A stretch of DNA of 38,716 nt from a virus (taxonomy: Duplodnaviria; Heunggongvirae; Uroviricota; Caudoviricetes). A program made the position numbers and the translations under genes. Location: IMG/VR virus record IMGVR_UViG_2740892369_000044; one strand, given 5' to 3'. Below are positions 5,262 through 32,185 of this stretch, one piece after another. The notes under the pieces were generated by a model. The model saw only the letters and a list, made by a program, of their open reading frames with translations. It was not told the origin of the DNA and made no database searches. The stretch's first letter is position 1, and every line of letters begins with the position of its first letter.

Positions 5262-5416
5262 TATCAGCCCTCCCATATCTCGTTATCGTTGGCTACATCG
5301 CGAGCTTCTTTGCTGACGAAAGCCCACTTAATGCCTTCCTGTAAGGTGCGGAACTTCCAGCTCATGAATCCGCATGCAGTAACGCAGTACCAACCGTTGA
5401 TGATTTTCCACTGCAT
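5252..5416 (-). CDS. Small ORF of about 53 aa (MQWKIINGWYCVTACGFMSWKFRTLQEGIKW...), first gene downstream of the OL-like operators
   Basis: Hand-translated, below the ORF-track size cut-off; in the position of the first PL-transcribed gene; coordinates +/-3. Confidence 0.2.
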
Positions 5417-5435
5417 AACTTGTTACCTCGGTCTG

Positions 5436-5512
5436 TTACCGTTGAGGTAATAATTATGCGTATCTGGTTTGGTGTCAATAGATATGAGTTAAAAAAATTA
5501 CCCGTTAGGTAA
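5436..5512. promoter_or_regulatory. OL-like operator region: two copies of the TTACC-N5-GGTAA inverted repeat (about 5436-5450 and 5498-5512)
   Basis: TTACCGTTGAGGTAA and TTACCCGTTAGGTAA read directly, upstream of the leftward early operon and downstream of the repressor terminator. Confidence 0.6.
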
Positions 5513-5522
5513 TCGAATAGGC

Positions 5523-5548
5523 AATAAAAAAGCCGCCATAAGGCGGCT
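5523..5548 (-). terminator. Rho-independent terminator downstream of the repressor gene
   Basis: Stem AGCCGCC / GGCGGCT with loop ATAA; A-tract on the plus strand gives a U-tract after the stem on the minus strand. Confidence 0.7.
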
Positions 5549-5569
5549 TACTTACTGAAAAATATGATT

Positions 5570-6154
5570 TTATTGTTTGTTTTTTTCGTTCTGGTTGATG
5601 ACAAATTCAATGTAACTTTCGATCTTTGCCTTCTCTGTTTCAGGTAACAATGCGTAGCGCGAGCGGTCATAGTTGATAGTTGCAGGGTCATGCGGATGAA
5701 TCAGTAGTTCATATCCGTGACGCCCGAATGCAGATGCAACATTCTCCAGGGTGGAAATGGAAACGCTGACCTCATTGTTTAACAGGCGGCTTATTGTCAC
5801 CTGGGCGACGCCGGATGCGCGGTGAAGTTTTCCCTGAGTTGAAAGGTCGCGGCTTTCACTCATCCAGCGTTCCAGGTTGTGAGCTGCCAGCTGACCAATG
5901 TCGCTTGGGCCGACAGGCTGAAAACCTTCCTGAGAAAGCGAGCGATCGATATCAAGCCAGTTACGGGGTTTATTGGCGGCAGCTTCAATTTTTCGTGCAA
6001 CCTGGTCGCCGATAACCTTCTTGCCAAGAGCCCAGCGGTTTACCAGATTTGCCTGAGTTCCAAGTTTTTCAGCCATCCGCGTCTGAACACCATTGAATTC
6101 ACGGTCGATCAAGTCGTTGAGATTTTGCCTGCGGACGTCCTGGATACTTTTCAT
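5570..6154 (-). CDS. CI-like prophage repressor with two XRE-type HTH domains and no S24 peptidase domain
   Basis: 194 aa; HTH-like segments near residues 25-60 (QTRMAEKLGTQANLVNRWALGKK) and 115-150 (VAQVTISRLLNNEVSVSISTLENVASAF); divergent from the Cro-like gene with operators between. Confidence 0.7.
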   Translation of the reverse strand: MKSIQDVRRQNLNDLIDREFNGVQTRMAEKLGTQANLVNRWALGKKVIGDQVARKIEAAANKPRNWLDIDRSLSQEGFQPVGPSDIGQLAAHNLERWMSESRDLSTQGKLHRASGVAQVTISRLLNNEVSVSISTLENVASAFGRHGYELLIHPHDPATINYDRSRYALLPETEKAKIESYIEFVINQNEKNKQ

Positions 6155-6209
6155 TTTCTGGAAAATCGCCTCATATCTGAATCAGAAGATGATTCAATTT
6201 AAAGCAATA

Positions 6210-6272
6210 TTACCCAACAGGTAAATGCACCTCATGGGTAACTATCCTTGATTTTTGTTACCTTATAGGTGA
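6210..6272. promoter_or_regulatory. OR-like operator cluster: three tandem TTACC-N5-GGTAA-type sites (about 6210-6224, 6227-6241, 6258-6272) between the divergent repressor and Cro-like genes
   Basis: TTACCCAACAGGTAA, GCACCTCATGGGTAA and TTACCTTATAGGTGA read directly in the 154-bp intergenic region. Confidence 0.7.
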
Positions 6273-6308
6273 ATATTTATTATCTGAAATAAATATCAGG
6301 CAATAGCT

Positions 6309-6539
6309 ATGAGCGATAACGGACATTTCGATTTCAAAAAGCACTGGCTTGCACTTACTCCGGATGAGCGTGAAGCCTTCGCACAGGAAGCCGGAACGAC
6401 GAGTCACTATATCCAGACTCACTTAACAGGTAAGCGCAAAATGCCAGGTAAGGTATTGATGAATGGGCTTTTTAAAGCCTGTAAATCAAGACAATGGTTG
6501 CGCTCAAAAGCAGAACTGGCATACTTCTTCTACTCATGA
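6309..6539 (+). CDS. Cro-like small HTH regulator
   Basis: 76 aa; first rightward gene after the operator cluster; HTH-like segment EREAFAQEAGTTSHYIQTHLTGKR. Confidence 0.55.
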   Translation: MSDNGHFDFKKHWLALTPDEREAFAQEAGTTSHYIQTHLTGKRKMPGKVLMNGLFKACKSRQWLRSKAELAYFFYS

Positions 6540-6560
6540 TATCCAGCCACAACCCTCTGT

Positions 6561-6585
6561 AGACCGCCACCCGGCGGTCTTTTCA
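6561..6585 (+). terminator. Rho-independent terminator after the Cro-like gene (tR1-like position)
   Basis: Stem AGACCGCC / GGCGGTCT with loop ACCC, followed by TTT. Confidence 0.6.
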
Positions 6586-6594
6586 TATCTATTC

Positions 6595-6609
6595 GTACCT
6601 CAAAGGTAA
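6595..6609. promoter_or_regulatory. Additional operator-type site GTACC-TCAAA-GGTAA just downstream of the tR1-like terminator
   Basis: Read directly; same half-site geometry as the OR/OL copies. Confidence 0.4.
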
Positions 6610-6689
6610 TAAAAAACCAAATCTGGTTGATCTTTTTTTTGTGTCAGCACAAAATGACCGTAATCCCAATACTAATAACAGGGCTTACC

Positions 6690-6890
6690 ATGGAAATCAT
6701 TACACGTATTGATGCCGCAAAGCGCGGACTTAAACGCTACTACACCGGAAAACCATGTAAGCATGGACATGACAGTGAACGCTGGGTTTACAACGGACAC
6801 TGTGTTGAGTGCACCATGGAATCAAACCGTCGCATCAGGGCAGAGATTAAGCAGATCATGATTAATTCCTCCCCACAACACTCAAGCTGA
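6690..6890 (+). CDS. Small zinc-ribbon protein in the cII-like position (about 66 aa)
   Basis: Internal ATG of track ORF 6627..6890; Cys/His cluster CKHGH...CVEC; function not inferable from motif. Confidence 0.4.
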   Translation: MEIITRIDAAKRGLKRYYTGKPCKHGHDSERWVYNGHCVECTMESNRRIRAEIKQIMINSSPQHSS

Positions 6891-6905
6891 TAGCGGAGAT
6901 TAATC

Positions 6906-7721
6906 ATGAGCAGACATGCAACAGATTGGGCCTGGGAGACAGATCCAGGTAGCTCATCATTAAAGCTCATACTGCTCTCGATGGCTGACAGAGCCGATGA
7001 ATATAACCTCTGCTACCCCAGCATAGAACGCCTCGTTAAAGACACTTGCCTGAATAAAAAAACCGTGCAGGCCGGGCTTATATCGCTCATGAAAATGGGG
7101 CTTATTTCAGATACCGGAGAGAGAAAGGGAGCGACGAAAAGAGTGCGGGTTTTCTCTCTTAATATAACCAAAAACGGGAACATTAAAGGCAACCGGGAAG
7201 GGGGTAATGAACCCGAAAACGGTAATGTTACCGAAAACGGGAATATACCCAAAAACGGGATGTTGAATGATCCCAAAAACGGGATGTTGAATGATCCCAA
7301 AAACGGGATCCAGAACCAGTCATATAACCAGTCATTTAACCAAGAGAGGGAGAGCAGGACAAAAAGCGGGGATTCTGTGCCTCATGACCCCGGCGCAAAC
7401 AACGCCGTGATGAATAACTTTGTTCCTCCTGGTGGGCCAGGGCAATTAGGCAAATTTGTCATGCATGAACAATGGCAACCATCAGATGACTTTCTTCGGA
7501 AAAGCTCATTGCAGGGGATCTACCTGGACAGTCTGCCAACGGCACAGGAACTTGCAGAGTTCAGAATTTACTGGATGGCTGAGGGTAAGGCATACCATCA
7601 GGCGCAGTGGGAGCAGAAGCTGGCAAGGCGGCTGCAGATTAGCAGACAGAAGCAATCAACATTACCTGATAACAACGTTCCGCACTGGAACAGCCCTGAA
7701 GCATGGGAGGATTTCTTGTGA
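6906..7721 (+). CDS. Replication initiator, lambda O-like (N-terminal HTH DNA-binding domain, repeat-encoded linker, C-terminal domain)
   Basis: 271 aa; N-terminal DWAWE...KLILLSMADRADE...CYPSIERLVKDT pattern of phage replication initiators; internal DNA repeats encode KNG/ENG peptide repeats; stop overlaps the P-like gene start. Confidence 0.75.
   Translation: MSRHATDWAWETDPGSSSLKLILLSMADRADEYNLCYPSIERLVKDTCLNKKTVQAGLISLMKMGLISDTGERKGATKRVRVFSLNITKNGNIKGNREGGNEPENGNVTENGNIPKNGMLNDPKNGMLNDPKNGIQNQSYNQSFNQERESRTKSGDSVPHDPGANNAVMNNFVPPGGPGQLGKFVMHEQWQPSDDFLRKSSLQGIYLDSLPTAQELAEFRIYWMAEGKAYHQAQWEQKLARRLQISRQKQSTLPDNNVPHWNSPEAWEDFL
7168..7310. repeat. Iteron-like direct repeats inside the O-like gene; candidate replication origin
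   Basis: At least six copies of CC(N)AAAACGG(G/T)A within about 140 bp, including two perfect 24-bp copies CCCAAAAACGGGATGTTGAATGAT; followed by an AT-rich stretch with CAGTCAT(A)T(A)AACCA repeated twice. Confidence 0.6.
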
Positions 7722-8503
7722 ACAACGTTTTTACCGCAATACAAAACCGTGACGGAGAAGCTCTTTCTCGCATGTCAGGTTATGAGCATCAGTACGTCAA
7801 CAATGACAACGTAGTGAACATGTCAGCAGAGAGGCTTGTTGATGCCCTTTTCAAACAGTTGAAACAACTGTTTCCGGCGGCAGTGGTAACCAACCTGAAG
7901 ACGCCAGAGCAGGAAGTTGCTGCAAAACAGCAGTGGATTGCTGCGTTTGCCGAAGGGGGGATCCGAACCCGTGAACAGGTTTCTGCTGGTATGCGCCACG
8001 CCCGCGCCAGTGATTCTCCGTTCTGGCCGTCGCCAGGGCAATTCATCAAGTGGTGCAAAGACAGCAAGATGGTTCTTGGCGTCACCATTGACGATGTGAT
8101 GACGGAGTTTCACCGGTACAGCAAGGAAAAAAGTTTATATCCTGGCGGTCCCGAAAGATTCCCGTGGCGGCATCCGGTTATGTACTGGGTTGTATGTGAT
8201 ACCCGCCGCGCAATGTATCAGCGCCAGCTTAGCGAGATTGAGGTTGAGAAACACGCGCGCAGGTTGCTCGATGATTGGGCGAAAAAGGTGGCTTCCGGAC
8301 AGCAGATACCCGATCCGGTGATCAGCATACAGGCAAAGCCAGAACCCATGAGTACGCCTCCGGACACAGGGAGAGACGTTTACCACCCGCCAGGGCGAAG
8401 TTTCGGGTGCATGCCTAACGCCGCCACCCTGGGTGGAATAACACCGGCACAGTGGCTGATGGAGGAATACAGGCGGGGAAAGGCGGCAGGATTTATCAAG
8501 TAA
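7718..8503 (+). CDS. Replication protein P-like (DnaB helicase loader)
   Basis: QQWIAAFAEGGIRTREQVSAGMRHAR and FWPSPGQFIKWC match the lambda P segments RQWVLAFRENGITTMEQVNAGMRVAR and FLPSPGQFVAWC; GTG start with GGAGG ribosome-binding site overlapping the O-like stop. Confidence 0.85.
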   Translation: MNNVFTAIQNRDGEALSRMSGYEHQYVNNDNVVNMSAERLVDALFKQLKQLFPAAVVTNLKTPEQEVAAKQQWIAAFAEGGIRTREQVSAGMRHARASDSPFWPSPGQFIKWCKDSKMVLGVTIDDVMTEFHRYSKEKSLYPGGPERFPWRHPVMYWVVCDTRRAMYQRQLSEIEVEKHARRLLDDWAKKVASGQQIPDPVISIQAKPEPMSTPPDTGRDVYHPPGRSFGCMPNAATLGGITPAQWLMEEYRRGKAAGFIK

Positions 8504-8508
8504 TACCA

Positions 8509-8529
8509 GCGCGATAGCGCATTTTTTTT
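8509..8529 (+). terminator. Probable terminator after the P-like gene (short GC stem plus T8)
   Basis: GCGC-GATA-GCGC followed by ATTTTTTTT. Confidence 0.4.
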
Positions 8530-8541
8530 ACGCCTAGATGA

Positions 8542-8618
8542 TTACCTGGTGGGTAATAAAATATACTAAAATCTATTGATTTCGTGTCTTATGTGGTTTT
8601 TAATTACCTCAGGGGTAA
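8542..8618. promoter_or_regulatory. Promoter region with two TTACC-N5-GGTAA sites (about 8542-8556 and 8604-8618) flanking a TTATGTGGTT box (about 8589-8598)
   Basis: TTACCTGGTGGGTAA and TTACCTCAGGGGTAA read directly; the second site abuts the ATG at 8622. Confidence 0.55.
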
Positions 8619-8621
8619 ATC

Positions 8622-8966
8622 ATGAGAAAACAGATACAGGCTCTTGGTCGACTCAAAACAGGCCAGATGAACAAAACAGAATCTGCGTATTGCCAGCACC
8701 TTGAGCAGCGTAAACGTGCAGGGGAAATCGCCTGGTATCGATTCGAGGGTCTCAAGCTGCAGTTAGCTGACAACACGTTCTATACGCCCGATTTTGCTGT
8801 GATGCTCGCCACCGGCGAGATGGAACTGCACGAAGTGAAAGGTTTCTGGACCGATGACGCCAGGGTGAAAACCAAAGTCGCCGCAGATCAGTATCCGTTC
8901 CGAATCATCGGGGTAACGGTTAAACCAAAGAAAGCAGGTGGTGGCTGGAACATCGAAGAGTTCTGA
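8622..8966 (+). CDS. VRR-NUC domain nuclease-fold protein
   Basis: 114 aa; FYTPDFAVM...ELHEVKGF matches the PD-x(n)-E-x-K signature of VRR-NUC domains. Confidence 0.65.
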   Translation: MRKQIQALGRLKTGQMNKTESAYCQHLEQRKRAGEIAWYRFEGLKLQLADNTFYTPDFAVMLATGEMELHEVKGFWTDDARVKTKVAADQYPFRIIGVTVKPKKAGGGWNIEEF

Positions 8967-9027
8967 ATCGACGATCTTTTTAGTTATCAATGTAATCAAT
9001 AAGTTATGTGGATAAGCGAGGGTAAAG

Positions 9028-9528
9028 ATGGAAATTAATATCAAAGGGTTAGTTGCCGCCGGGCATGAGATGGCTTCGGAACTGAAAGCTGAATGTGGTG
9101 CCGTTGATATGCGCAGTGTGGCAAAGCTGATCAGTGATTTGGCAACGCAACTGGAAGTGCAACTGGTGCGTGCTAATGCGCTGGCCGAAGACCAACAGAA
9201 AGCGATTGAGTCAATTAAGCAGGCTGATGCAGCTGTTAAGTTGGCACACGAGAAGTTTTCAGCGCTGGCAGCGGAGAATGCGGGGCTGAAACACGCAATG
9301 GCCGTAACTCTTGAGCATGTGTCGGTCACGGATGCAGGGCAGGCTGGTGTTGCTGCAATGATTATCAACGATGCCCTACACCACAGCGAAACTCCAGCCA
9401 CCGACGCTTTCCTGGCTGAAGTTCGGGCGCAGGGGGTGGAAATGTTTGCGGAGTGTGCATACACACTTGAACATCATGATCACGCAGTAGCTTTTGCCGC
9501 CGAGCTACGCAAAGGAGGCAACCAGTGA
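9028..9528 (+). CDS. Hypothetical helical protein (nin-like region)
   Basis: 166-aa ORF with GGT-rich upstream ribosome-binding site; no motif recognised. Confidence 0.5.
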   Translation: MEINIKGLVAAGHEMASELKAECGAVDMRSVAKLISDLATQLEVQLVRANALAEDQQKAIESIKQADAAVKLAHEKFSALAAENAGLKHAMAVTLEHVSVTDAGQAGVAAMIINDALHHSETPATDAFLAEVRAQGVEMFAECAYTLEHHDHAVAFAAELRKGGNQ

Positions 9529-10016
9529 GCAAGATTGACTATCAGGCACTGCGCGAGGCGGCAGAGAAAGCAACGTGGGGTGACTGGGACTCATATAAAC
9601 CACACCGTGGCGCACGTGGTTATGAAGTCCGGCTAAGTAGTCAGGCCATTGCGCAACACGTTCTGAAAAACAACGCTGAATTTATTGCTGCCTTTAATCC
9701 CAAGATTGCTTTGGCACTACTGGATGAACGGGAAAGAAACCAGCAATACATCAAAAGCCGCGATCAGGAGAACGAGGATATTGCGCTAACGGTAGGGAAG
9801 CTGCGCGTTGAGCTTGAAGCAGAAAAACAGCGGGCAAAAGTTCTATTTATGGAAAATGCTCGGCTTAAGTCAGGCATAGCCGGTCTGATACACCTCGGTA
9901 TTCGATATGCAGATGTTGAGGTCATGAAAATTGCTGGAGATGCCCAGCTTTCTACCCCATGCACTGACAGCATCATAAACAGCATTGCAACAGGCATTCG
10001 CATCAAAGGAGAGTGA
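9525..10016 (+). CDS. Ead/Ea22-like protein
   Basis: N-terminus MSKIDYQALREAAEKATWGDW resembles the conserved N-terminus of Ead/Ea22-like prophage proteins. Confidence 0.55.
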   Translation: MSKIDYQALREAAEKATWGDWDSYKPHRGARGYEVRLSSQAIAQHVLKNNAEFIAAFNPKIALALLDERERNQQYIKSRDQENEDIALTVGKLRVELEAEKQRAKVLFMENARLKSGIAGLIHLGIRYADVEVMKIAGDAQLSTPCTDSIINSIATGIRIKGE

Positions 10017-10017
10017 T

Positions 10018-10533
10018 ATGGCGTTAACACACCACGAACTCTGTCAGATTGCGTACAAGTTCCTTAAGCGCAACGGGTTCAAGGTTTGTTTTCATGACAG
10101 CTTTATAGCTGTAACCAGTACCGGAGAACAGCCAGATGCTATGGGATTCAGAAATTCAGCATCATGCCTGATAGAGGCGAAGTGTTCTCGTGCTGACTTG
10201 TTAGCAGATAGAAAAAAGCGTTTTCGTAAAAATCCGTCTCTTGGAATGGGCGACTGGCGATTCTTTATTAGTGAGCCGGGAATTATTTCAATTGAGGATT
10301 TACCACCTGGCTGGGGATTACTTCACGTTGTTAACGGAAGAGTACGGAAAGTACATGGGTGGCCCAAGGGTAATTGCTGTTGGGGTAATCCTGACGATAA
10401 GCCATTTACTGGGAATAAGCAGGTTGAATGCGATTACATGTTATCTGCATTAAGGCGCATGGAGTTGAGAGGGCACCTTAATGAAATATATGACGGTGTG
10501 ATTGTTAATAAGAAAGAAGGAAACGCGGCATGA
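10018..10533 (+). CDS. PD-(D/E)xK nuclease-fold protein (Hjc/restriction-endonuclease-like); possible junction resolvase
   Basis: Internal ATG with AAGGAGAG ribosome-binding site; motif EQPDAMGF...CLIEAKCSRAD (PD...E.K). Confidence 0.45.
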   Translation: MALTHHELCQIAYKFLKRNGFKVCFHDSFIAVTSTGEQPDAMGFRNSASCLIEAKCSRADLLADRKKRFRKNPSLGMGDWRFFISEPGIISIEDLPPGWGLLHVVNGRVRKVHGWPKGNCCWGNPDDKPFTGNKQVECDYMLSALRRMELRGHLNEIYDGVIVNKKEGNAA

Positions 10534-11147
10534 TCACTATTACCAAAGGGCGACTGCTGACAATCAAACAGTGGCGCGAAACATACGGACCTGGTAGCAA
10601 CGTTGTACTGCCAGCAGAAGAAGCGGAAGAACTGGCACGAATTGCTCTGGCATCGCTGGAAGCAGAGCCTATTGGTGAGGTTTCAGAGAAGCGACTCGGC
10701 CTTGTTATGGATGGAACGGTAGACCTTGGCGGGAAATCAACTTATCGCATCATTAAGGGAGAAAAAGCGATGAAGTTGTTGCCGCTGGGGACGAAGTTTT
10801 ATACCGCACCGCCAGCGCCGATAGCGTTGGAGGCCATTGAAAATGCAATAGAATACATCCGCAGTATCGCTTTTCACATCGATGAAGGCGATTATCACGG
10901 CAAACATATTGCGTATTTCATGCGACAAGCATTGGCCTGGCTGGAAGGGTATTCATGCCGCGATGACAGCCAGGGCAAATCCGATAATTCACCATTGCCG
11001 CGCTACCAGGTTATCGAATTAACAATGCTGGTTAAACAATTGGTCAGCCAACTGAAAAAAGCAAAACCTGATTGCAAATTACCAGATAGGGCGATGGATT
11101 ATCTTTTGCGAAACGGACTGGTAAGTGCGGAGGGTGTTTTACGATGA
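10530..11147 (+). CDS. Hypothetical protein
   Basis: 205-aa ORF, start overlaps the upstream stop (ATGA). Confidence 0.5.
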   Translation: MITITKGRLLTIKQWRETYGPGSNVVLPAEEAEELARIALASLEAEPIGEVSEKRLGLVMDGTVDLGGKSTYRIIKGEKAMKLLPLGTKFYTAPPAPIALEAIENAIEYIRSIAFHIDEGDYHGKHIAYFMRQALAWLEGYSCRDDSQGKSDNSPLPRYQVIELTMLVKQLVSQLKKAKPDCKLPDRAMDYLLRNGLVSAEGVLR

Positions 11148-11347
11148 CCATTTCTACCAAAAAGCCTCTTTATGCTGAGGTTCACAATGTTCCCGATAAT
11201 TATGAGTTCACTGACGAGGAACTAAACAGAATTATTGCAGGTGATATGTTCACTCCTCGTCAGGACGCAATAATGGCACGGGAGATACAGAAACTCCGCG
11301 CCGCCATGATTGTATTTCTCATGATGCAGGAAAATCAGAATGGCTAA
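11144..11347 (+). CDS. Hypothetical small protein
   Basis: 67-aa ORF, coupled start. Confidence 0.45.
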   Translation: MTISTKKPLYAEVHNVPDNYEFTDEELNRIIAGDMFTPRQDAIMAREIQKLRAAMIVFLMMQENQNG

Positions 11348-11678
11348 ATCAGCAGCAGAGCGCAAAGCCGCTCAGAGAGCCAGACAAGCTGCATCTGGTG
11401 TGCGTAAGCTGGAGATTGTGCTTGATGCTCAGGAAATTGAAATGCTAGAGCGTAACTGTGCCACGCGTCGCCCCGGGCGTGCGCCTTACGAATTTGGTGA
11501 GTATATAGCGTCACTGATCCGCCAGGATGATGCACGCGTGCGCGGGCGTATAAAATCGATCAGCAGAAAACGTTGCGGTAAGTGCGGCGAGAGAGTTCCA
11601 GTTAATTCATGCCCGTGCAATGGTGACTCGCAATGCTGGGTGACTAAAGGCTGGCATGAAACGAAATTAATAGTGTGA
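11340..11678 (+). CDS. Zinc-ribbon DNA-binding-like protein; candidate late-gene regulator by position
   Basis: 112 aa; basic N-terminal helical region and C-terminal Cys cluster CGKCGERVPVNSCPCNGDSQC; last gene before the terminase operon. Confidence 0.45.
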   Translation: MAKSAAERKAAQRARQAASGVRKLEIVLDAQEIEMLERNCATRRPGRAPYEFGEYIASLIRQDDARVRGRIKSISRKRCGKCGERVPVNSCPCNGDSQCWVTKGWHETKLIV

Positions 11679-11727
11679 CATGTCACGATTAGATTATGCA
11701 TGATGAATTTGATGTGTTTTGAATACT

Positions 11728-11753
11728 GCCGCCAACTATGGCGGCTTTATTTT
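11728..11753 (+). terminator. Rho-independent terminator upstream of the terminase operon
   Basis: Stem GCCGCC / GGCGGC with loop AACTAT, followed by TTTATTTT. Confidence 0.6.
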
Positions 11754-11764
11754 GCATGGTACTA

Positions 11765-11797
11765 TTACCACAACGGTAACTATTACCACGGTGGTTA
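11765..11797. promoter_or_regulatory. Two TTACC-N5-GGT(A/T)A sites (about 11765-11779 and 11783-11797) abutting the terminase small-subunit start codon
   Basis: TTACCACAACGGTAA and TTACCACGGTGGTTA read directly. Confidence 0.5.
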
Positions 11798-12393
11798 TGA
11801 TGCCTGCTGAACCTAAAACCTATAAACGCAAATCAACGCAATTTAAGCCGCTCACAGCAATGCAGGAGGCTTATTGCCAGTCATACATCAAAACGCCTGA
11901 AAACCAGACTCAGGCAGCGATTAACGCAGGATTCTCCCCAAATACAGCGGCAGTTAAAGCCAGTGTCATGATGCGCGATGAACGCATTCAAAAACGGATT
12001 GCCGAGTTGATGGAGGAGCGCAACAAACGAATGCGCGTCAGTGCTGATTACGTTCTCATGCGCCTGGTGGAGATCGACCAGATGGACGTGATCGATATCC
12101 TCAACGACGATGGGAGCCTTAAACCAATCCGTGAGTGGCCGAAAATCTGGCGCACTACGCTTAGCGGCTTTGATCTGTCATCGACCATCATGAACATGAA
12201 CGAGGATTCGATAGAGACAATCCTCAAAAAAATTAAATGGCCTGACAAGGTGAAGAACCTCGAACTGATTGGTAAGCACGTCGACGTCAACGCATTCAAA
12301 GAACGCTTGGATGTTAATGTGAATGTGACAATTGCTGATCGCATAGCAGCAGCCAGGAAGCGACTCAAAGAACGTCAGGATGGCAATCAGTGA
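11797..12393 (+). CDS. Terminase small subunit (P27-type)
   Basis: Internal ATG (MMPAEPK...) of track ORF 11719..12393; LTAMQEAYCQSYIK...NQTQAAINAGFSPNTAAVKAS...ADYVLMRLVEI pattern of phage small terminase subunits; stop overlaps the large subunit start. Confidence 0.75.
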   Translation: MMPAEPKTYKRKSTQFKPLTAMQEAYCQSYIKTPENQTQAAINAGFSPNTAAVKASVMMRDERIQKRIAELMEERNKRMRVSADYVLMRLVEIDQMDVIDILNDDGSLKPIREWPKIWRTTLSGFDLSSTIMNMNEDSIETILKKIKWPDKVKNLELIGKHVDVNAFKERLDVNVNVTIADRIAAARKRLKERQDGNQ

Positions 12394-13865
12394 CAGATAC
12401 AGCGTTATCTCCTGAAGAGCAGTTAATCGAGGATATTGCAGGGTTCACTCACGATCCGCTTGGCTATGCCCTCTATGCGTTCCCGTGGGGGGAAGAAGGG
12501 ACTGAACTGGCACATGCTACCGGCCCACGTCAGTGGCAGGCTGATGCGTTCCGAGAGATACGTGATCACCTGCAGAATCCAGCGACGCGCTATCAGCCGC
12601 TTATGCTGGCACTCGCTTCTGGTCACGGTATTGGTAAATCCGCATTCATCTCAATGCTGATCAACTGGGGCATGTCCACTTGCGAGGATTGTAAGGTCGT
12701 GGTGACCGCCAACACCGACAACCAGCTACGAACGAAGACCTGGCCGGAAATTATCAAGTGGTCGAACCTTGCTATCACGAAAGACTGGTTTACCTGTACC
12801 GCTACCGCGATGTACAGCAATGACCTAGGGCACGACAAGCGGTGGCGGGCTGACGCAATACCCTGGTCTGAGCACAACACCGAGGCATTCGCCGGACTAC
12901 ACAACGAGCGCAAACGCATCATCGTGGTGTTTGATGAAGCGTCGAACATTGCGGATCTGGTGTGGGAAGTTGCCGAGGGTGCGCTTACGGACGAAGACAC
13001 TGAGATTATTTGGGTGGCGTTCGGAAACCCTACACGTAACACCGGGCGTTTTCGCGAATGTTTCCGCAAATATAAACACCGCTGGAAAACTGCGCAGATT
13101 GACAGCCGGACGGTGGAAGGCACTAACAAACAGCAGTTGCAGAAATGGGTTGATGACTACGGGGAAGACAGCGACTTCGTTAAAATCCGTGTGCGCGGCA
13201 TATTCCCGGATGCATCTGAATTGCAGTTTATCCCTACCGGACTTACTGACGAGGCAATGAAACGGGTGGTCACCGCTGCGCAGGTTGCATATGCTCCGGT
13301 GATAATCGGCGTTGACCCGGCATACTCAGGCGTTGATGACGCTGTGATATACCTGCGGCAGGGGCTGCACAGTAAGGTGCTGTGGACTGGCAACAAGACT
13401 ACCGACGATCTGATTATGGCGAAGCGTATCGCTGACTTTGAAGACCAGTATCAGGCTGACGCGGTGTTCATCGACTTCGGTTACGGAACCGGTTTGAAGT
13501 CAATCGGTGACGGCTGGGGTCGTACATGGCAACTTGTTCCGTTCGGTGGCGCGTCTACTGACCCGCAGATGCTCAACAAGCGTGGGGAGATGTTCAACTC
13601 ATGCAAGACATGGCTGAGGCTCGGCGGCATGCTGGATGACCAGGAAACTGCAGACGACCTGTCGGCGGCAGAGTACAAAGTTCGTGTGGACGGTAAAATC
13701 GTTATCGAACCGAAGGAAGATATCAAAGAGCGGCTTGGGCGTTCGCCTGGTAAAGGCGATGCGCTACTGCTGACGTTTGCTTTCCCGGTGTCAAAGCGCC
13801 TGCGACTTCCCGGGCAGCAGAACCAGCAAGGCAAGGCGCTTACCGAGTACGATCCATATGCTTAG
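12390..13865 (+). CDS. Terminase large subunit
   Basis: 491 aa; Walker-A-like ASGHGIGKS, DEASNI (Walker B-like), C-terminal nuclease-like region; position between small terminase and portal. Confidence 0.85.
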   Translation: MTDTALSPEEQLIEDIAGFTHDPLGYALYAFPWGEEGTELAHATGPRQWQADAFREIRDHLQNPATRYQPLMLALASGHGIGKSAFISMLINWGMSTCEDCKVVVTANTDNQLRTKTWPEIIKWSNLAITKDWFTCTATAMYSNDLGHDKRWRADAIPWSEHNTEAFAGLHNERKRIIVVFDEASNIADLVWEVAEGALTDEDTEIIWVAFGNPTRNTGRFRECFRKYKHRWKTAQIDSRTVEGTNKQQLQKWVDDYGEDSDFVKIRVRGIFPDASELQFIPTGLTDEAMKRVVTAAQVAYAPVIIGVDPAYSGVDDAVIYLRQGLHSKVLWTGNKTTDDLIMAKRIADFEDQYQADAVFIDFGYGTGLKSIGDGWGRTWQLVPFGGASTDPQMLNKRGEMFNSCKTWLRLGGMLDDQETADDLSAAEYKVRVDGKIVIEPKEDIKERLGRSPGKGDALLLTFAFPVSKRLRLPGQQNQQGKALTEYDPYA

Positions 13866-14680
13866 TCTTTATTTTTATCCTCGAAACCTGATAATCCAGA
13901 TAGAACACCAAAGTTATTAAAAACGTTTGGCTTACCAGATTTTAATCCGGATAAGTTGTGTTGCTCCAAAAAGTTACTAATTGTTTGGCCGTTGCCAAGT
14001 GCAAGGCTTTTTATTTGAGATTTTTCAGGGTATTTGAGTTTGTATTCGTCGAAATCATTTTGGAGGGTCTTATATGCCTCATTCATTCTTCCAAGAGTTT
14101 CCGATATCTCTTTTAATGAATGATTTAGAGCTGCTAACTGAGCACTGGCGGATCTCAATTCGTCATCTTTAGCTTTCAACTCGGCAGTCAATTCACCCAT
14201 ACTATTCTTTGATCGAATAATCTCTTCTTTCATCTCTTGGATGTCTTTTTCCGCGCCAGTCTTAACTTTGTCGTATGTAACATCTTTTTTAGCCAATAAC
14301 CTCTGCAGTCTTGTTTCACGCTGGATTTTTCTTGCCTTCAGGTGATTTTCGATTGAGTCATTATTATCAAGAGGCTTTGCTTGCCATACGTTAATGATAT
14401 TGTTTACCCATGGTAATAGGCAGCAGATAGCAATTACAGATAGGCATGGATAAAACATAACAGTTTTCCATGTGCTGTTATCTGAGATATATGAAATTTT
14501 ATCTATTATGTTTGATTTGCTAAAAAATAGATAAAGAATTGATTTCCAGTTGAAGGCGCACCAGGACATAACAAAAGCACCAAGCACAGGGTTTTTGGCT
14601 CTATTCACGGCAGTATTGGCAGTAGATAAAAACAGCTCTTTAAACGATTCAAACATGCTAATTACCTTGAAGTTTTTCAT
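13862..14680 (-). CDS. Accessory (moron) protein: two predicted TM helices at the N-terminus followed by a long coiled coil; function unknown
   Basis: 272 aa from internal ATG (MKNFKV...) of track ORF 13862..14752; strongly AT-rich relative to neighbours; antisense to the late operon; stop overlaps the terminase large stop by 3 nt. Confidence 0.6.
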   Translation of the reverse strand: MKNFKVISMFESFKELFLSTANTAVNRAKNPVLGAFVMSWCAFNWKSILYLFFSKSNIIDKISYISDNSTWKTVMFYPCLSVIAICCLLPWVNNIINVWQAKPLDNNDSIENHLKARKIQRETRLQRLLAKKDVTYDKVKTGAEKDIQEMKEEIIRSKNSMGELTAELKAKDDELRSASAQLAALNHSLKEISETLGRMNEAYKTLQNDFDEYKLKYPEKSQIKSLALGNGQTISNFLEQHNLSGLKSGKPNVFNNFGVLSGLSGFEDKNKD

Positions 14681-14684
14681 GATT

Positions 14685-14699
14685 ATACCTTTAAGGTAA
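14685..14699. promoter_or_regulatory. TTACC-TTAAA-GGTAT site (minus-strand sense) overlapping the ribosome-binding site of the moron gene
   Basis: Read directly; the 24 nt ending at the ATG are near-identical to those in front of the VRR-NUC gene at 8601-8624. Confidence 0.45.
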
Positions 14700-14715
14700 T
14701 TTGCGGTCATCAAGC

Positions 14716-14739
14716 AAAAAAATGCCCGGCGAACCGGGC
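14716..14739 (-). terminator. Rho-independent terminator between the tRNA and the moron gene
   Basis: Stem GCCCGG / CCGGGC with loop CGAA; A7 on the plus strand gives a U-tract on the minus strand. Confidence 0.6.
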
Positions 14740-14771
14740 GAACTGGAAGCAATGAGTTATGCCTTCCGTGG

Positions 14772-14787
14772 CTGTACTGGTTTACAG
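14772..14787. promoter_or_regulatory. Weak LexA-box-like element (CTGT-N8-ACAG)
   Basis: GGCTGTACTGGTTTACAGCA has the correct CTG-N10-CAG spacing but a GC-containing centre. Confidence 0.25.
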
Positions 14788-14902
14788 CATGAAGTCATCG
14801 CAATGGCGTCCTGCTGTAAAAAGGGCGGTGATAGTTCTTCAAGGGAAACCATCACCGCCAAGCGCCTGGAACTTCTGGCATCACGGTCCTTAGGCGTGAT
14901 TC

Positions 14903-14979
14903 TGGCGTGGCATGCAGGATTCGAACCTGCGACCAACCGCTTAGAAGGCGGTTGCTCTGTCCAGCTGAGCTAATGCCAC
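14903..14979 (-). tRNA. tRNA-Arg, anticodon UCU, with encoded CCA
   Basis: Hand-folded cloverleaf: acceptor GTGGCAT/ATGCCAC, D-stem GCTC/GAGC, anticodon stem ACCGC/GCGGT with loop CTTCTAA, T-arm GCAGG-TTCGAAT-CCTGC; body resembles argU-type tRNAs but the acceptor stem differs. Confidence 0.85.
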
Positions 14980-15048
14980 AACGCTGAGAGCACTTAGCCT
15001 GTTAAGGCGCCACACTTTGTCGCGGCTCCATAAATGCTCTCAGCGTTG
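14979..15048. repeat. 14-bp inverted repeat (CAACGCTGAGAGCA ... TGCTCTCAGCGTTG) with about 41-bp spacer, abutting the tRNA 5' end
   Basis: Read directly; would form a leader hairpin immediately 5' of the mature tRNA. Confidence 0.5.
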
Positions 15049-15301
15049 TACCCTCGTCTCTTCCGAGGCGTCACACCGAATCGCCGGGATGGTGAATCCC
15101 CGTGCGCGGAATAAAACCGCTCGACTTGCACATTCCGGCTACCTGGTTCGTTTGCCCGAGCAAGGGAGGGTGCCCCTTAAACGTATCCAGACCGCTATCG
15201 GCGCATGTGCCATACGCCGTACTGCTCAAAATAAAAGCTCACTCCACCTGTTCAATTTAACGACAAGCCAGTCAGGTTAGTAACCGGAATGAACTCTTTG
15301 G

Positions 15302-15368
15302 TTACCTGAAAGGTAATAATTTGTGCGTTAAATGTCAACTATCTACGATAAATAAATCATATGTGGTT
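15302..15368 (+). promoter_or_regulatory. Late-promoter-like cassette upstream of the portal operon: TTACCTGAAAGGTAA site (about 15302-15316) and CATATGTGGTT box (about 15358-15368)
   Basis: Both elements read directly; first ATG at 15407. Confidence 0.55.
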
Positions 15369-15406
15369 AAATTGGTAATAATTTAATTGCGTACGGAGTC
15401 ATTGAT

Positions 15407-15613
15407 ATGTGCATGGGTAGTTCACCATCAGTGCCTGCAACACCAGAAGTTCAGGCAGCACCACAGGAGCAGGATGCCGCCGTTATTGATGCCCGCGACG
15501 AAGAAACTCGTCGCCGTCGCGCTGCTGCTGGTCGTAATTCTACGCTGCTTACCGGTTCTCAGGGCGACACATCAACCGCTAATACCAGCGGTAAAACGCT
15601 GCTTGGTCAGTAA
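15407..15613 (+). CDS. Hypothetical small protein, first gene of the head operon
   Basis: 68-aa ORF with GGAG ribosome-binding site; low-complexity sequence. Confidence 0.4.
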   Translation: MCMGSSPSVPATPEVQAAPQEQDAAVIDARDEETRRRRAAAGRNSTLLTGSQGDTSTANTSGKTLLGQ

Positions 15614-15627
15614 CCGGAGTCATTGAA

Positions 15628-17307
15628 ATGGCGGAAACAACTAAAGAGCGATTGAACAAACAGTTCGCACAACTTGAAAGCGAGCGTCAGTCGTTCGAGC
15701 CGCACTGGCGCGAGTTGAGTGATTACATCAACCCGCGTGGTTCCCGCTTTCTGACTTCTGAGGTCAACCGTAACGATCGACGCAATACACGCATTATTGA
15801 TTCGACCGGGACTATGGCGGCGCGCACTCTCGCCAGCGGCATGATGTCAGGCATCACAAGCCCCGCGCGTCCGTGGTTTCGCCTGGCTACGCCAGATCCT
15901 GAAATGATGGATTATGGCCCTGTTAAGTTGTGGCTTGAGGCGGTGCAGAACCGCATGAACGATATGTTCAATAAGTCGAATCTCTATCAGTCGCTGCCGC
16001 AGTTATACGGAAGCCTCGGCACATACAGCACCGGTGCAATGGCGGTACTGGAGGATGATGAGGACATCATTCGCACAATGCCATTCCCGATAGGCAGTTA
16101 CTACCTGGCTAACTCACCTCGTGGCAGTGTTGACACCTGTTTTCGCAAGTTCTCTATGACTGTTCGTCAGCTTGTTCAGGAGTTCGGGCTAAATAACGTC
16201 AGCGAATCCGTAAAAAGCATGTGGGAAAGCGGCACCTACGAGAAGTGGATTGACGTGATGCATTCGGTTTACCCGAACATTGACCGCGATACATCGAAGC
16301 TGGATAGCAAGAACAAGCCATTCAAATCGGTTTATTACGAGGTTGGTGGCGATAACGACAAGTTGTTGCGTGAGTCCGGATTCGATGAGTTTCCAATTAT
16401 GGCTCCGCGCTGGGAAGTTAATGGCGAAGATGTTTATGGATCATCATGCCCGGGTATGCTGGCGCTTGGACCTGTTAAGGCATTGCAGCTTCTCCAGAAG
16501 CGCAAGTCGCAGTTGATTGATAAAGCCACCAATCCGCCGATGGTTGCTCCGACTTCCCTCAAGAATCAGCGCGCCTCCCTTCTTCCTGGCGACATCACGT
16601 ATATCGATCAGATTACTGGTCAGGATGGCTTCAGGCCTGCTTATCTGGTTAACCCCAGTACAGCAGATTTGGTGGCAGACATTCAGGACACTCGTCAAAT
16701 CATTAACAGCGCCTACTTTGTCGATCTGTTCATGATGTTGCAGAACATCAATACCCGCTCGATGCCTGTTGAAGCGGTGATCGAAATGAAAGAAGAAAAA
16801 CTTCTGATGTTGGGGCCGGTTCTGGAGCGTCTGAACGACGAATGTCTTAATCCTCTCATTGACCGCGCTTTCTCGATGATGGTGCGTAAAAACATGCTGC
16901 CGCCACCGCCTGACGCGATGGAAGGTATGCCCCTGAAGGTCGAATACATTTCCGTCATGGCTCAGGCGCAGAAGTCTATCGGCCTGTCCAGTCTGGCGTC
17001 TACGGTCAACTTCATTGGTCAACTTGCGCAAGCGAAACCAGAAGCTCTCGACAAACTCAACGTTGATCAGGCGATCGATGCATTCGCTGATATGTCCGGA
17101 GTGTCTCCAACCGTCATTGTTCCGCAGGAACAGGTTGAGCAGGCTCGCCAGCAACGGGCACAGCAGCAACAGCAGCAACAAATGATGGCGATGGGAATGG
17201 CGGCGGCACAGGGCGCCAAGACGCTAAGCGAAGCTAAAACTTCGGATCCGAGTGTTTTGTCAGCTATGGCGAATGCAGTTAGTGGTCAGGGTGGGCAATC
17301 ACAATGA
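15628..17307 (+). CDS. Portal protein
   Basis: 559 aa; size, position after terminase and before scaffold/capsid, Gln-rich C-terminus; GGAG ribosome-binding site. Confidence 0.75.
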   Translation: MAETTKERLNKQFAQLESERQSFEPHWRELSDYINPRGSRFLTSEVNRNDRRNTRIIDSTGTMAARTLASGMMSGITSPARPWFRLATPDPEMMDYGPVKLWLEAVQNRMNDMFNKSNLYQSLPQLYGSLGTYSTGAMAVLEDDEDIIRTMPFPIGSYYLANSPRGSVDTCFRKFSMTVRQLVQEFGLNNVSESVKSMWESGTYEKWIDVMHSVYPNIDRDTSKLDSKNKPFKSVYYEVGGDNDKLLRESGFDEFPIMAPRWEVNGEDVYGSSCPGMLALGPVKALQLLQKRKSQLIDKATNPPMVAPTSLKNQRASLLPGDITYIDQITGQDGFRPAYLVNPSTADLVADIQDTRQIINSAYFVDLFMMLQNINTRSMPVEAVIEMKEEKLLMLGPVLERLNDECLNPLIDRAFSMMVRKNMLPPPPDAMEGMPLKVEYISVMAQAQKSIGLSSLASTVNFIGQLAQAKPEALDKLNVDQAIDAFADMSGVSPTVIVPQEQVEQARQQRAQQQQQQQMMAMGMAAAQGAKTLSEAKTSDPSVLSAMANAVSGQGGQSQ

Positions 17308-31885: not shown

Positions 31886-31910
31886 AGGCCGCTTTCGCGG
31901 CCTTTTCTTT
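31886..31910 (+). terminator. Rho-independent terminator
   Basis: Stem AGGCCGC / GCGGCCT with loop TTTC, followed by TTTCTTT. Confidence 0.65.
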
Positions 31911-32166: not shown

Positions 32167-32185
32167 CTTATCTTCTCCATGCAAT

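What the first reader, a model, noticed from the sequence alone, without database searches (positions are those of the whole stretch)
8601..14703. Near-identical 24-nt translation-initiation regions, each containing the inverted repeat, in front of the VRR-NUC gene and the moron
The plus-strand sequence ATTACCTCAGGGGTAAATCATG before the 8622 gene and the minus-strand sequence ATTACCTTAAAGGTATAATCATG before the moron at 14680 share about 19 of 24 positions. In RNA the UUACC/GGUAA arms could pair and occlude the Shine-Dalgarno sequence; in DNA the repressor site overlaps the start. This suggests a portable regulatory joint on unrelated genes, possibly combining transcriptional repression with translational control.
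Basis: seen in the sequence. Interest (0 to 1): 0.35.

Follow-up and report, generated by a model that had tools for sequence, protein, structure and literature searches.

The report
Two repressor operators, not shared start sites
The two look-alike sequences are two of at least 13 copies of the binding site for this prophage's main repressor, a site already annotated in the related phage epsilon15, and they are not a shared translation-start module because the ATG in front of the "moron" is probably not its start codon.

Summary
The window is a phiV10/epsilon15-like (Uetakevirus) prophage of E. coli 97-3250.

Ten of the identities are the arms of one 17-bp palindrome, ATTACC-N5-GGTAAT. It occurs 13 times in the window against 0.68 expected, always between genes. 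The epsilon15 GenBank record already annotates the same palindrome as a repressor-binding site.

**Site 8603-8619.** This is the promoter-proximal partner of an operator pair 62 bp apart, the same geometry as at pL. Its spacer and right arm (AGGGGT) also serve as the Shine-Dalgarno of the first gene. Across about 90 viral contigs the same joint precedes either DUF1064 or RuvC, both Holliday-junction resolvases.

**Site 14684-14700.** This palindrome lies inside the moron's own sigma-70 promoter (ATGACC-17-TATAAT).
- The ATG at 14680 sits between the -10 hexamer and the expected transcription start.
- It is replaced by TAG or CAG in orthologous cassettes.
- 15 of 16 homologues start at the Met encoded at 14656.

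The proposed RNA hairpins are weak (-4.2 and -3.3 kcal/mol) and probably not fully transcribed. The translational-control reading is not supported. This is an ordinary finding of low interest.

The parts
8509..8529 (+). Terminator-like GC hairpin (GCGC-GATA-GCGC) followed by T8, after the replication gene that ends at 8503
   Evidence: Read directly. It is conserved in the 72 Uetakevirus-type sequences of the 74 aligned. With only 4 pairs it falls below the 5-pair threshold of the scan.
8541..8557 (.). Distal Rep operator ATTACCTGGTGGGTAAT (12/12 to consensus)
   Evidence: The arms are intact in 80 of 80 loci found through the protein, while the spacer varies freely. The orthologous epsilon15 site 35906-35922 is annotated protein_bind 'repressor'.
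8576..8581 (+). -35-like hexamer TTGATT
   Evidence: ATTGA is conserved in 72 of the 74 sequences aligned. It lies 35 nt upstream of the proximal operator centre, the same offset as TTGACA at pL. That this is a promoter is an inference.
8591..8598 (+). ATGTGGTT box, also found upstream of the portal, tailspike and lysis operons
   Evidence: 6 copies against 1.47 expected. Four are intergenic, on the + strand, 40-52 nt after an operator centre (8591, 15361, 32290, 35562).
8599..8604 (+). -10-like hexamer TTTAAT, 17 nt after TTGATT. It lacks the A at position 2, so the promoter call is tentative.
   Evidence: Read directly. The geometry parallels pL. The promoter scan did not report it.
8603..8619 (.). 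Proximal Rep operator ATTACCTCAGGGGTAAA (11/12). Its centre at 8611 is 62 bp from the distal centre and 11 nt before the ATG.
   Evidence: The arms are intact in 78 of 80 unbiased loci. Epsilon15 has ATTACCTGAGAGGTAAA in the same register before RuvC.
8611..8616 (+). Shine-Dalgarno AGGGGT, formed by the operator spacer and the right arm
   Evidence: The proximal spacer is constrained to T.AG(A/G) in relatives, whereas the distal spacer is free. It lies 5 nt before the ATG.
8622..8966 (+). DUF1064 gene (PD-(D/E)XK type, Holliday-junction resolvase family).
   Evidence: Pfam DUF1064, E = 3.3e-7. phrog_190 'Holliday junction resolvase', E = 5.8e-42. PGAP annotation.
14724..14739 (-). Intrinsic terminator GCCCGGTTCGCCGGGC followed by T7, just upstream of the moron promoter
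14705..14710 (-). -35 hexamer ATGACC of the moron promoter
   Evidence: The highest-scoring promoter-like match in 5200-15700, tied at 10/12 with the pL match. TGAC is conserved in 30 of 31 unique homologous upstream sequences.
14684..14700 (.). Operator-like palindrome ATTACCTTAAAGGTATA (10/12, read on the - strand), inside the promoter spacer and overlapping the -10
   Evidence: The core TACC-N5-GGTA is intact in 22 of 23 Uetakevirus contexts against 1 of 7 other contexts.
14682..14687 (-). -10 hexamer TATAAT of the moron promoter
   Evidence: TA(T/G/C)A(A/C)T at 17-nt spacing is present in 29 of 31 unique sequences.
14678..14680 (-). It is probably not a start codon: it lies 1 nt after the -10, before the expected transcription start near 14675.
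14665..14668 (-). Shine-Dalgarno AAGG of the probable real start, 8 nt before ATG 14656
   Evidence: Read directly.
13862..14656 (-). Moron coding sequence as re-called here: 264 aa, with a hydrophobic N-terminal region, a coiled-coil-like middle and unknown function
   Evidence: Homologues are 264 aa and start at the aligned Met. phrog_4780 matches residues 1-264 to profile positions 1-267. Only coiled-coil-type weak hits were found in Pfam and PADLOC.
11764..11798 (.). Tandem operators (11764-11780 and 11782-11798, centres 18 bp apart). The second abuts the real terS start at ATG 11800, with GGTGG as Shine-Dalgarno. This is a third operator/ribosome-site overlap.
   Evidence: Conserved in epsilon15 and in the Salmonella and metagenome loci.
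5435..5513 (.). OL operator pair (5435-5451 and 5497-5513), 62 bp apart, bracketing pL (TTGACA-17-AATTAT on the - strand, 5478..5450)
6209..6273 (.). OR operators (6209-6225 and 6257-6273) between rep and the cro-like gene. pR is TTGTTA-17-TATTAT, 6255-6283.
5570..6154 (-). Rep repressor gene
   Evidence: Full-length homologue of the Salmonella phage SPC32H repressor, PDB 5D50_A, E = 4e-42. Pfam HTH_3.

Best explanation
The two similar 23-24-mers are two copies of the 17-bp operator ATTACC-N5-GGTAAT of the prophage's Rep repressor. At least 13 copies mark essentially every transcription unit of this epsilon15/phiV10-like prophage. They work at the DNA level and sit in two different promoter positions.

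**Site 8603-8619.** This is the promoter-proximal member of a pair whose centres (8549 and 8611) are 62 bp apart.
- The pair brackets a -35-like TTGATT, an ATGTGGTT box and a weak -10.
- The geometry matches pL, with operators at about +1 and about -62.
- One Rep tetramer, which has two DNA-binding units, could hold both sites and shut the middle operon in the lysogen.
- The right half-site resembles a Shine-Dalgarno, so the operator also encodes the ribosome-binding site of the first gene. That slot is filled by DUF1064 in some phages and by RuvC in others.

**Site 14684-14700.** This palindrome lies in the spacer and -10 of the moron's own sigma-70 promoter, ATGACC-17-TATAAT.
- Rep bound there would occlude RNA polymerase.
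- The ATG at 14680 is an accidental triplet between the -10 and the transcription start.
- Translation starts at ATG 14656, with its own AAGG Shine-Dalgarno.

**Shown versus inferred.**
- Shown: motif enrichment and positions; conservation of the arms, of the moron promoter and of the moron start; the Rep/Ant homology.
- Inferred: Rep binding at these particular sites, the transcription start positions, the promoter at 8576-8604, and looping by a tetramer.
For: **The motif and its binding protein.**
- 13 sites against 0.68 expected, all intergenic.
- The same consensus is annotated protein_bind 'repressor' at 7 sites in epsilon15 AY150271.2: three in the OL region (downstream of the repressor gene), and one each before terS, gp3, the tailspike and RuvC.
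- The window encodes full-length homologues of SPC32H Rep (5D50_A, 4e-42) and of its antirepressor Ant (5D50_E, 1.3e-47).
- A perfect LexA box lies at 32188-32203.
- Rep is described as a tetramer that binds palindromic sites (PMC9638917 discussion).

**The 8603 site.**
- The architecture terminator, distal operator, ATTGA, TGTGGTTT, proximal operator, AATC-ATG is conserved in 72 of 74 unique sequences; the two outliers carry tandem operators 18 bp apart instead.
- The proximal arms are intact in 78 of 80 loci, and the distal arms in 80 of 80 with a free spacer. These loci were found through the protein, not the motif.
- pL has the same offsets.
- DUF1064 and RuvC alternate behind the same joint. 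Both are resolvase families.

**The moron site.**
- It ties with pL as the highest-scoring promoter-like match in the region, at 10/12.
- 29 of 31 unique upstream sequences, from Uetakevirus, lambdoid and chromosomal contexts, keep xTGACx-17-TAxAxT.
- The ATG after the -10 is present only in one closely related E. coli allele group, 5 of the 31.
- 15 of 16 homologues start at the Met aligned with window Met9.
- The palindrome core is intact in 22 of 23 Uetakevirus contexts against 1 of 7 others (Fisher p = 8e-5, not corrected for relatedness).

**RNA.** The hairpins are weak and no better than shuffles. No Rfam family matches either site.
Against: - There are no binding or transcription-start data for this phage, and the papers that mapped epsilon15 and SPC32H operators could not be read.
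- The proposed -10 at 8599-8604 (TTTAAT) lacks the key A at position 2, and the scan did not call it. The promoter may need an activator, or it may lie elsewhere.
- The moron site matches only 10 of 12 positions. In one large group of relatives it matches only 8 of 12 (GCTACC...GGTATA), although those phages use ATTACC...GGTAAT elsewhere. It may therefore be a weak operator or not an operator at all.
- Repression of a moron by the lysogenic repressor would be unusual, because morons are usually expressed from the prophage.
- The identical AATCATG after both palindromes is somewhat unlikely by chance, by my own rough post-hoc estimate under 1%.
- In the window's allele, ATG 14680 is in frame with no intervening stop. 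Leaky read-through from upstream could therefore still use it.
Confidence: 0.75

Rival explanations
1. A portable 24-nt translation-initiation joint is shared by both genes, and its UUACC/GGUAA arms pair in the mRNA to hide the Shine-Dalgarno. This would add translational control to transcriptional repression.
For: - Both palindromes include G-rich Shine-Dalgarno-like bases and are followed by AATCATG.
- A local hairpin is the predicted fold of each isolated 18-19-mer.
- The operator/ribosome-site overlap is conserved at 8603 and at terS.
Against: - The hairpins are only -4.2 and -3.3 kcal/mol, and folds in context do not differ from shuffles (z = -0.14 to -0.32).
- The same arms occur at 10 or more sites that are not near any start codon, so Shine-Dalgarno occlusion does not explain them.
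- There are no compensatory changes. The arms are invariant, and the two variants seen are single-arm hits.
- The moron ATG is not the start and is not conserved.
- With the inferred transcription starts, the left arm is not transcribed.
Confidence: 0.05
2. The moron palindrome is not an operator. It is promoter-spacer sequence that travels with the moron cassette and happens to resemble the Rep site. Only the 8603 site is a real operator.
For: - The right arm GGTA is fused to the -10 (GG-TAnAAT), so it is conserved for promoter reasons.
- Much of the element (CCTTAAAGGTA) also occurs in non-Uetakevirus contexts.
- The match is 10 of 12 in the window and 8 of 12 in a large group of relatives whose other operators are 11-12 of 12.
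Against: - The core TACC-N5-GGTA is intact in 22 of 23 Uetakevirus contexts but in only 1 of 7 others.
- Accepted operators in OR of this phage are no better, for example 6257-6273 at 9 of 12.
Confidence: 0.2
3. The palindromes are bound by another regulator, either the Cro-like protein (6309-6539) or an unknown late activator. That binding would be additional to Rep or would replace it. The copies in front of the middle and late operons would then act in activation or timing rather than lysogenic repression.
For: - Sites lie upstream of every late operon, whose promoters look non-consensus.
- In lambda-type switches, Cro shares operators with the repressor (established knowledge).
- The Cro-like gene matches a transcriptional-regulator family, phrog_35.
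Against: - The epsilon15 annotators assigned these sites to the repressor.
- No late activator has been identified here.
- This reading is compatible with the main model rather than exclusive of it.
Confidence: 0.15

Closest known systems
Repressor-binding sites of Salmonella phage epsilon15 (GenBank AY150271.2, protein_bind 'repressor; lysogeny'), with the Rep/Ant/LexA switch of epsilon15-like phage SPC32H (PDB 5D50)
   Same: - The consensus ATTACC-N5-GGTAAT is identical.
- The placement is the same: the OL region (downstream of the repressor gene), and before terS, the gp3/portal operon, the tailspike and the resolvase gene.
- Rep, Ant and the LexA box are homologous or present in both.
   Different: - The epsilon15 record marks only the perfect 12/12 sites.
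- Its proximal 11/12 site that overlaps the ribosome-binding site (35968-35984) is not annotated.
- Epsilon15 carries a different gene in the terL-portal slot, so it has no counterpart of the moron-promoter site.
Lambda-type operator/promoter overlap (repressor site within the core promoter)
   Same: A palindromic operator overlaps the -35/-10 or +1 of sigma-70 promoters. Operators come in pairs or triplets at the divergent immunity region.
   Different: - Operators are also dispersed to the middle, late, lysis and moron promoters.
- Rep is a non-cleavable tetramer inactivated by an antirepressor (from PMC9638917 and my own recollection of Kim & Ryu 2013).
Genome-wide dispersed repressor sites: the conserved inverted repeats of Streptomyces phage phiC31, and the 'stoperators' of mycobacteriophage L5 (recalled from my own knowledge, not tested here)
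   Same: There are many copies of one repressor site spread over the whole phage genome at operon boundaries.
   Different: - L5 stoperators are asymmetric and orientation-dependent, and block elongation.
- The sites here are symmetric and promoter-associated.
- There is no sequence relationship.
Shine-Dalgarno-sequestering hairpins and translational operators
   Same: The Shine-Dalgarno lies inside an inverted repeat.
   Different: The stem is too weak, shows no covariation, and is probably not fully transcribed. This is not a member of that class.
Conserved boundary or linker sequences at module junctions of mosaic temperate phages (modular-evolution literature, my own knowledge)
   Same: A short conserved intergenic element is followed by alternative, functionally analogous genes (DUF1064 or RuvC), in several upstream backgrounds.
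   Different: Here the conserved element has an identifiable regulatory function as operator plus ribosome-binding site. That function, rather than a role in recombination, could explain its conservation.

Membership tests
Epsilon15/SPC32H-type Rep operator | 17-bp hyphenated palindrome matching ATTACC-N5-GGTAAT | tested here: met
   8603-8619 matches 11 of 12 positions and 14684-14700 matches 10 of 12. The consensus is identical to the annotated epsilon15 sites.
Epsilon15/SPC32H-type Rep operator | A cognate Rep repressor is encoded in the same element | tested here: met
   The product of 5570-6154 (-) matches 5D50_A at E = 4e-42 over its full length. Ant matches 5D50_E at 1.3e-47.
Epsilon15/SPC32H-type Rep operator | Multiple copies confined to intergenic promoter regions, with conserved arms and a free spacer | tested here: met
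   13 copies against 0.68 expected, all intergenic. The distal arms are intact in 80 of 80 loci with a variable spacer.
Epsilon15/SPC32H-type Rep operator | Physical binding by Rep and repression of the adjacent promoter | not testable with these tools
   This needs a gel-shift, footprint or ChIP assay. The primary papers were not held in the library.
Shine-Dalgarno-sequestering RNA hairpin / translational operator | A hairpin stable enough to compete with the ribosome | tested here: not met
   -4.2 and -3.3 kcal/mol. Context z-scores are -0.23, -0.14 and -0.32.
Shine-Dalgarno-sequestering RNA hairpin / translational operator | Compensatory base changes that maintain pairing | tested here: not met
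   The arms are invariant. The two variants among 80 loci are single-arm changes. The outermost A/G...T/C position occurs in mixed, non-pairing combinations.
Shine-Dalgarno-sequestering RNA hairpin / translational operator | The element immediately precedes a genuine start codon and lies on the mRNA | tested here: inconclusive
   The start codon is genuine at 8622 but probably not at 14680. The transcription starts are only inferred from promoter geometry.
Sigma-70 promoter (moron site) | -35 and -10 hexamers at 16-18 nt spacing, conserved among homologous upstream regions | tested here: met
   ATGACC-17-TATAAT scores 10 of 12. 29 of 31 unique sequences keep xTGACx-17-TAxAxT across three kinds of genomic context.
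Moron cassette (autonomous promoter + gene, flanked by terminator, inserted between phage modules) | Own promoter, a flanking terminator, opposite orientation to its neighbours, and occurrence in unrelated phage backgrounds | tested here: met
   A terminator lies at 14739-14724 and a promoter at 14710-14682. The gene is on the - strand between terL and the portal gene. The same family occurs in a Klebsiella lambdoid nin region and at chromosomal loci.

The most novel reading that the evidence does not exclude
The Rep operator is deliberately dual-coded. Its right half-site (A/G)GGTAA serves as the Shine-Dalgarno of the first gene of at least two operons (the resolvase slot and terS), at a fixed register with the operator centre 10-11 nt before the ATG. 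This register is conserved across Uetakevirus lineages.

This compact operator/ribosome-site joint would also be the recombination point at which analogous genes (DUF1064 and RuvC) are exchanged. Acquired morons would become tuned to the resident repressor, as suggested by the palindrome being intact only in Uetakevirus contexts. A residual RNA-level or coupling role of the joint is not strictly excluded.
Probability: 0.15. Interest if true: 0.4.

Novelty: new member of a known kind. Interest (0 to 1): 0.15.

Why it matters
- **Gene calls.** The work corrects two probable annotation errors in a widespread E. coli prophage family: the moron start (14656, not 14680) and the terS start (11800, not 11719).
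- **Repressor network.** The epsilon15/SPC32H repressor network appears to reach a resolvase operon and, probably, an acquired accessory gene.
- **Moron regulation.** If the moron promoter really is under Rep control, this would be a moron that is silenced rather than expressed in the lysogen. That bears on what the protein is for, for example a lytic-phase function or exclusion.
- **Overall.** Beyond these points the finding is an ordinary instance of operator repeats and opens no new question.

Tried and rejected
- **Primary literature.** I tried to read Kropinski 2007 (PMC2698709, PMID 17825342), Kim & Ryu 2013 (PMC3807360) and Kim 2016 (PMC4983836). None is held. A full-text search for ATTACC/GGTAAT with phage and repressor returned only primer lists and unrelated papers. 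The ZX5 paper confirms repressor function by overexpression but maps no operator.
- **Wider genome scan.** A genome-contig scan with the moron alignment found no confirmed relative.
- **Known RNA families.** Rfam matched only tRNA-Arg in the whole window.
- **Moron as a defence gene.** PADLOC gave only weak hits to the coiled-coil parts of DndD, LmuB and JetC. I rejected these as compositional matches.
- **A long hairpin in the moron leader.** AAUUACCUU (14701-14693) pairs with AAGGUAAUU (14669-14661) at -13 kcal/mol (z = -2.07). It would cover the real Shine-Dalgarno. I rejected it because the downstream arm is absent from orthologous cassettes and the upstream arm lies before the expected transcription start.
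- **Co-variation with operator type.** I asked whether the variant moron palindrome in some relatives (GCTACC...GGTATA) tracks a different operator type. It does not, because those phages use ATTACC...GGTAAT at their other sites.
- **Canonical promoters for terS and the late operons.** I looked for sigma-70 promoters there and found none that was convincing.

Full report
**Origin of the window.** The window matches E. coli 97-3250 (NZ_CP027599.1) at 100% identity. It is 97% identical, in mosaic pieces, to phages phiv142-3, PAS61, TL-2011b, ZX5 and phiV10. It is therefore an epsilon15/phiV10-like (Uetakevirus) prophage, integrated next to guaA.

**The observation.** Both quoted strings are present. 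ATTACCTCAGGGGTAAATCATG ends at the ATG of the DUF1064 gene at 8622. ATTACCTTAAAGGTATAATCATG on the minus strand ends at the ATG at 14680, which PGAP calls the start of a 272-aa hypothetical protein. Aligned with one gap, the two 24-mers share 20 positions.

**What the shared part is.** Ten of the shared bases are the arms of a palindrome.
- TTACC-N5-GGTAA with at most one mismatch occurs 13 times in the window, against 0.68 expected. None of 100 shuffles reached 13.
- All 13 copies lie between genes:
  - two at OL (5435, 5497);
  - two at OR (6209, 6257);
  - one after the cro-like gene (6594);
  - two before DUF1064 (8541, 8603);
  - two before terS (11764, 11782);
  - one at the moron (14684);
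  - one each before the gp3/portal operon (15301), the tailspike (32242) and the lysis genes (35511).
- The epsilon15 GenBank record AY150271.2 annotates seven protein_bind features labelled 'repressor; lysogeny'. Every one reads ATTACC-N5-GGTAAT, and they sit at the equivalent places.
- The window encodes full-length homologues of the SPC32H repressor Rep (PDB 5D50_A, E = 4e-42) and of its antirepressor Ant (5D50_E, E = 1.3e-47).
- A perfect LexA box, CTGTATAAATATACAG, lies at 32188-32203, upstream of ant.
- Rep is described as a tetramer that binds palindromic sites (PMC9638917).

**The site at 8603.** I scanned IMG/VR for ATTACC-N5-GGTA-N2-3-TCATG, which returned 120 loci.
- In about 90 Uetakevirus-like contigs, ATTACC-N5-GGTAAATCATG precedes either the 114-aa DUF1064 protein or a 154-aa RuvC-like protein. 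Epsilon15 has the same string before its RuvC gene.
- DUF1064 matches phrog_190, 'Holliday junction resolvase'. The two genes are therefore analogous fillers of one slot.
- 72 of 74 unique upstream sequences share one architecture: a small GC hairpin with a T-run, a distal operator with a free spacer, ATTGA, TGTGGTTT, a proximal operator, AATC and ATG. The two outliers (L068, L106) instead carry two operators 18 bp apart abutting the ATG.
- The proximal spacer is constrained to T.AG(A/G), which with the following GGT forms the Shine-Dalgarno.
- In 80 loci retrieved through the protein, so unbiased for the motif, the proximal arms are intact in 78 and the distal arms in 80. The distal spacer takes dozens of forms.
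- The two operator centres are 62 bp apart, the same distance as at OL.
- At OL the scan finds pL as TTGACA-17-AATTAT, with one operator at about +1 and the other at about -62. The same offsets at 8549/8611 place TTGATT at -35 and TTTAAT at -10.
- That -10 lacks the A at position 2, so I treat this promoter as inferred. An ATGTGGTT box at 8591 recurs before three late operons. This suggests a shared promoter class, possibly activator-dependent.

**The site at the moron.**
- 15 of 16 homologues at 48-75% identity begin at the Met aligned with window Met9, encoded at 14656. Most of the closest ones are 264 aa.
- The 264-aa form matches phrog_4780 from profile position 1.
- One of the two top-scoring promoter-like matches in 5200-15700 (10/12, tied with pL) is ATGACC-17-TATAAT at 14710-14682 on the minus strand. 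The palindrome lies in its spacer and overlaps the -10. The ATG at 14680 begins 1 nt after the -10, so it lies before the expected transcription start near 14675.
- Of 31 unique upstream sequences from Uetakevirus, Klebsiella lambdoid and chromosomal contexts, 29 keep xTGACx-17-TAxAxT. Only one closely related E. coli allele group (5 sequences) has ATG at that position. The others read TAG, CAG or similar.
- The real start has its own AAGG Shine-Dalgarno, 8 nt upstream.
- A terminator at 14739-14724 sits immediately upstream.

The element in front of the moron is therefore a promoter with an embedded operator-like palindrome, not a translation-initiation region.

**Is the moron palindrome a working operator?** The core TACC-N5-GGTA is intact in 22 of 23 Uetakevirus contexts but in only 1 of 7 others (Fisher p = 8e-5, not corrected for relatedness). 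This argues that it is maintained where Rep is present. Against this, the match is only 10 of 12 here. It is 8 of 12 in a large group of relatives whose other operators are canonical.

**RNA.**
- The isolated hairpins fold at -4.2 and -3.3 kcal/mol. In context, the folds are no better than shuffles (z = -0.23, -0.14, -0.32).
- From my recollection of published hairpin-stability work (not checked here), stems this weak are unlikely to limit initiation much.
- The same arms occur at many sites far from any start codon.
- The arms show invariance rather than compensatory change.
- No Rfam family matches.

The translational-control reading is not supported.

At terS, the second of two tandem operators (11782-11798) abuts ATG 11800, with GGTGG as the Shine-Dalgarno. 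The encoded N-terminus, MPAEPK, matches that of epsilon15 terS. This arrangement is conserved in epsilon15 and in the Salmonella and metagenome loci. PGAP's TTG start at 11719 would place a strong terminator (11728-11745) inside the gene, so it is probably wrong.

**Verdict.** The similarity is real, but it reflects two copies of a known operator placed at different positions in two different promoters.
- The 'portable joint' idea holds only for the 8603 element, which precedes DUF1064 or RuvC in different phages.
- It does not link that element to the moron.
- Novelty: new members of a known kind.
- Interest: low.

Noticed in passing
window 11719-11800: PGAP starts terS at TTG 11719, but a strong intrinsic terminator (11728-11745 plus a T-run) and two Rep operators lie inside that extension. 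The N-terminus of epsilon15 terS (MPAEPK) aligns with ATG 11800, so 11800 is the likely start.
   Followed up: yes
window 8591-8598, 15361-15368, 32290-32297, 35562-35569: An ATGTGGTT box, usually preceded by CAT, lies 40-52 nt downstream of a Rep operator centre before the resolvase, portal, tailspike and lysis operons (6 copies against 1.47 expected). Epsilon15 has it at the orthologous places. It may be a shared middle/late promoter or activator element. No regulator was identified.
   Followed up: partly
window 31909-32203: An 85-aa gene on the minus strand is a close homologue of the SPC32H antirepressor Ant (PDB 5D50_E). A perfect LexA box, CTGTATAAATATACAG, lies at 32188-32203, 22 nt upstream of its start. 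This prophage therefore has the LexA-Ant-Rep induction switch rather than a self-cleaving repressor.
   Followed up: yes
window 37744-38716, and NZ_CP027599.1 1520524 onward (L129): After the lysis genes, the record repeats the integrase, phosphatase, MT-A70 methyltransferase and PerC-like genes with identical protein accessions. The window is therefore one unit of a tandem double prophage, or of a duplicated prophage end.
   Followed up: partly
window 8541-8557 and orthologous sites in L134-L213: Among phages whose DUF1064 protein is at least 96% identical, the central spacer of the distal operator and the roughly 10 nt upstream of it take dozens of different forms. The arms and the rest of the intergenic region are nearly invariant. 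This looks like unusually fast local turnover and is unexplained.
   Followed up: no
window 13862-14656 (-); L007/L008, L132, L133: The moron family (phrog_4780; hydrophobic N-terminal region, coiled-coil-like middle, KDKD tail) has a conserved N-terminal part of about 170 aa and a variable C-terminal part. It occupies the terL-portal slot of many Uetakeviruses. It also occurs in the nin region of Klebsiella lambdoid prophages and at chromosomal loci in Enterobacter (next to guaA) and Cronobacter, always with the same promoter. Its function is unknown.
   Followed up: partly
window 7256-7299: Two identical 20-bp stem-loop-forming units (TGGGATCATTCAACATCCCG followed by TTTTTGGG) lie in tandem inside the DnaT-like replication gene (6906-7721). 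They may be origin iterons.
   Followed up: no
L068 and L106 (IMG/VR contigs): In a more distant phage type, DUF1064 is preceded by two operators only 18 bp apart that abut the ATG directly after a terminator. No room is left for a promoter between them. This is the same layout as at terS, and where these genes' transcripts start is unclear.
   Followed up: no
window 14903-14979 (-) and 14772-14787: A tRNA-Arg(UCU) gene lies upstream of the moron on the same strand. A LexA-like CTGT-N8-ACAG (CTGTACTGGTTTACAG) lies between the tRNA gene and the moron terminator. It is not conserved in the Salmonella orthologue and is probably chance.
   Followed up: partly
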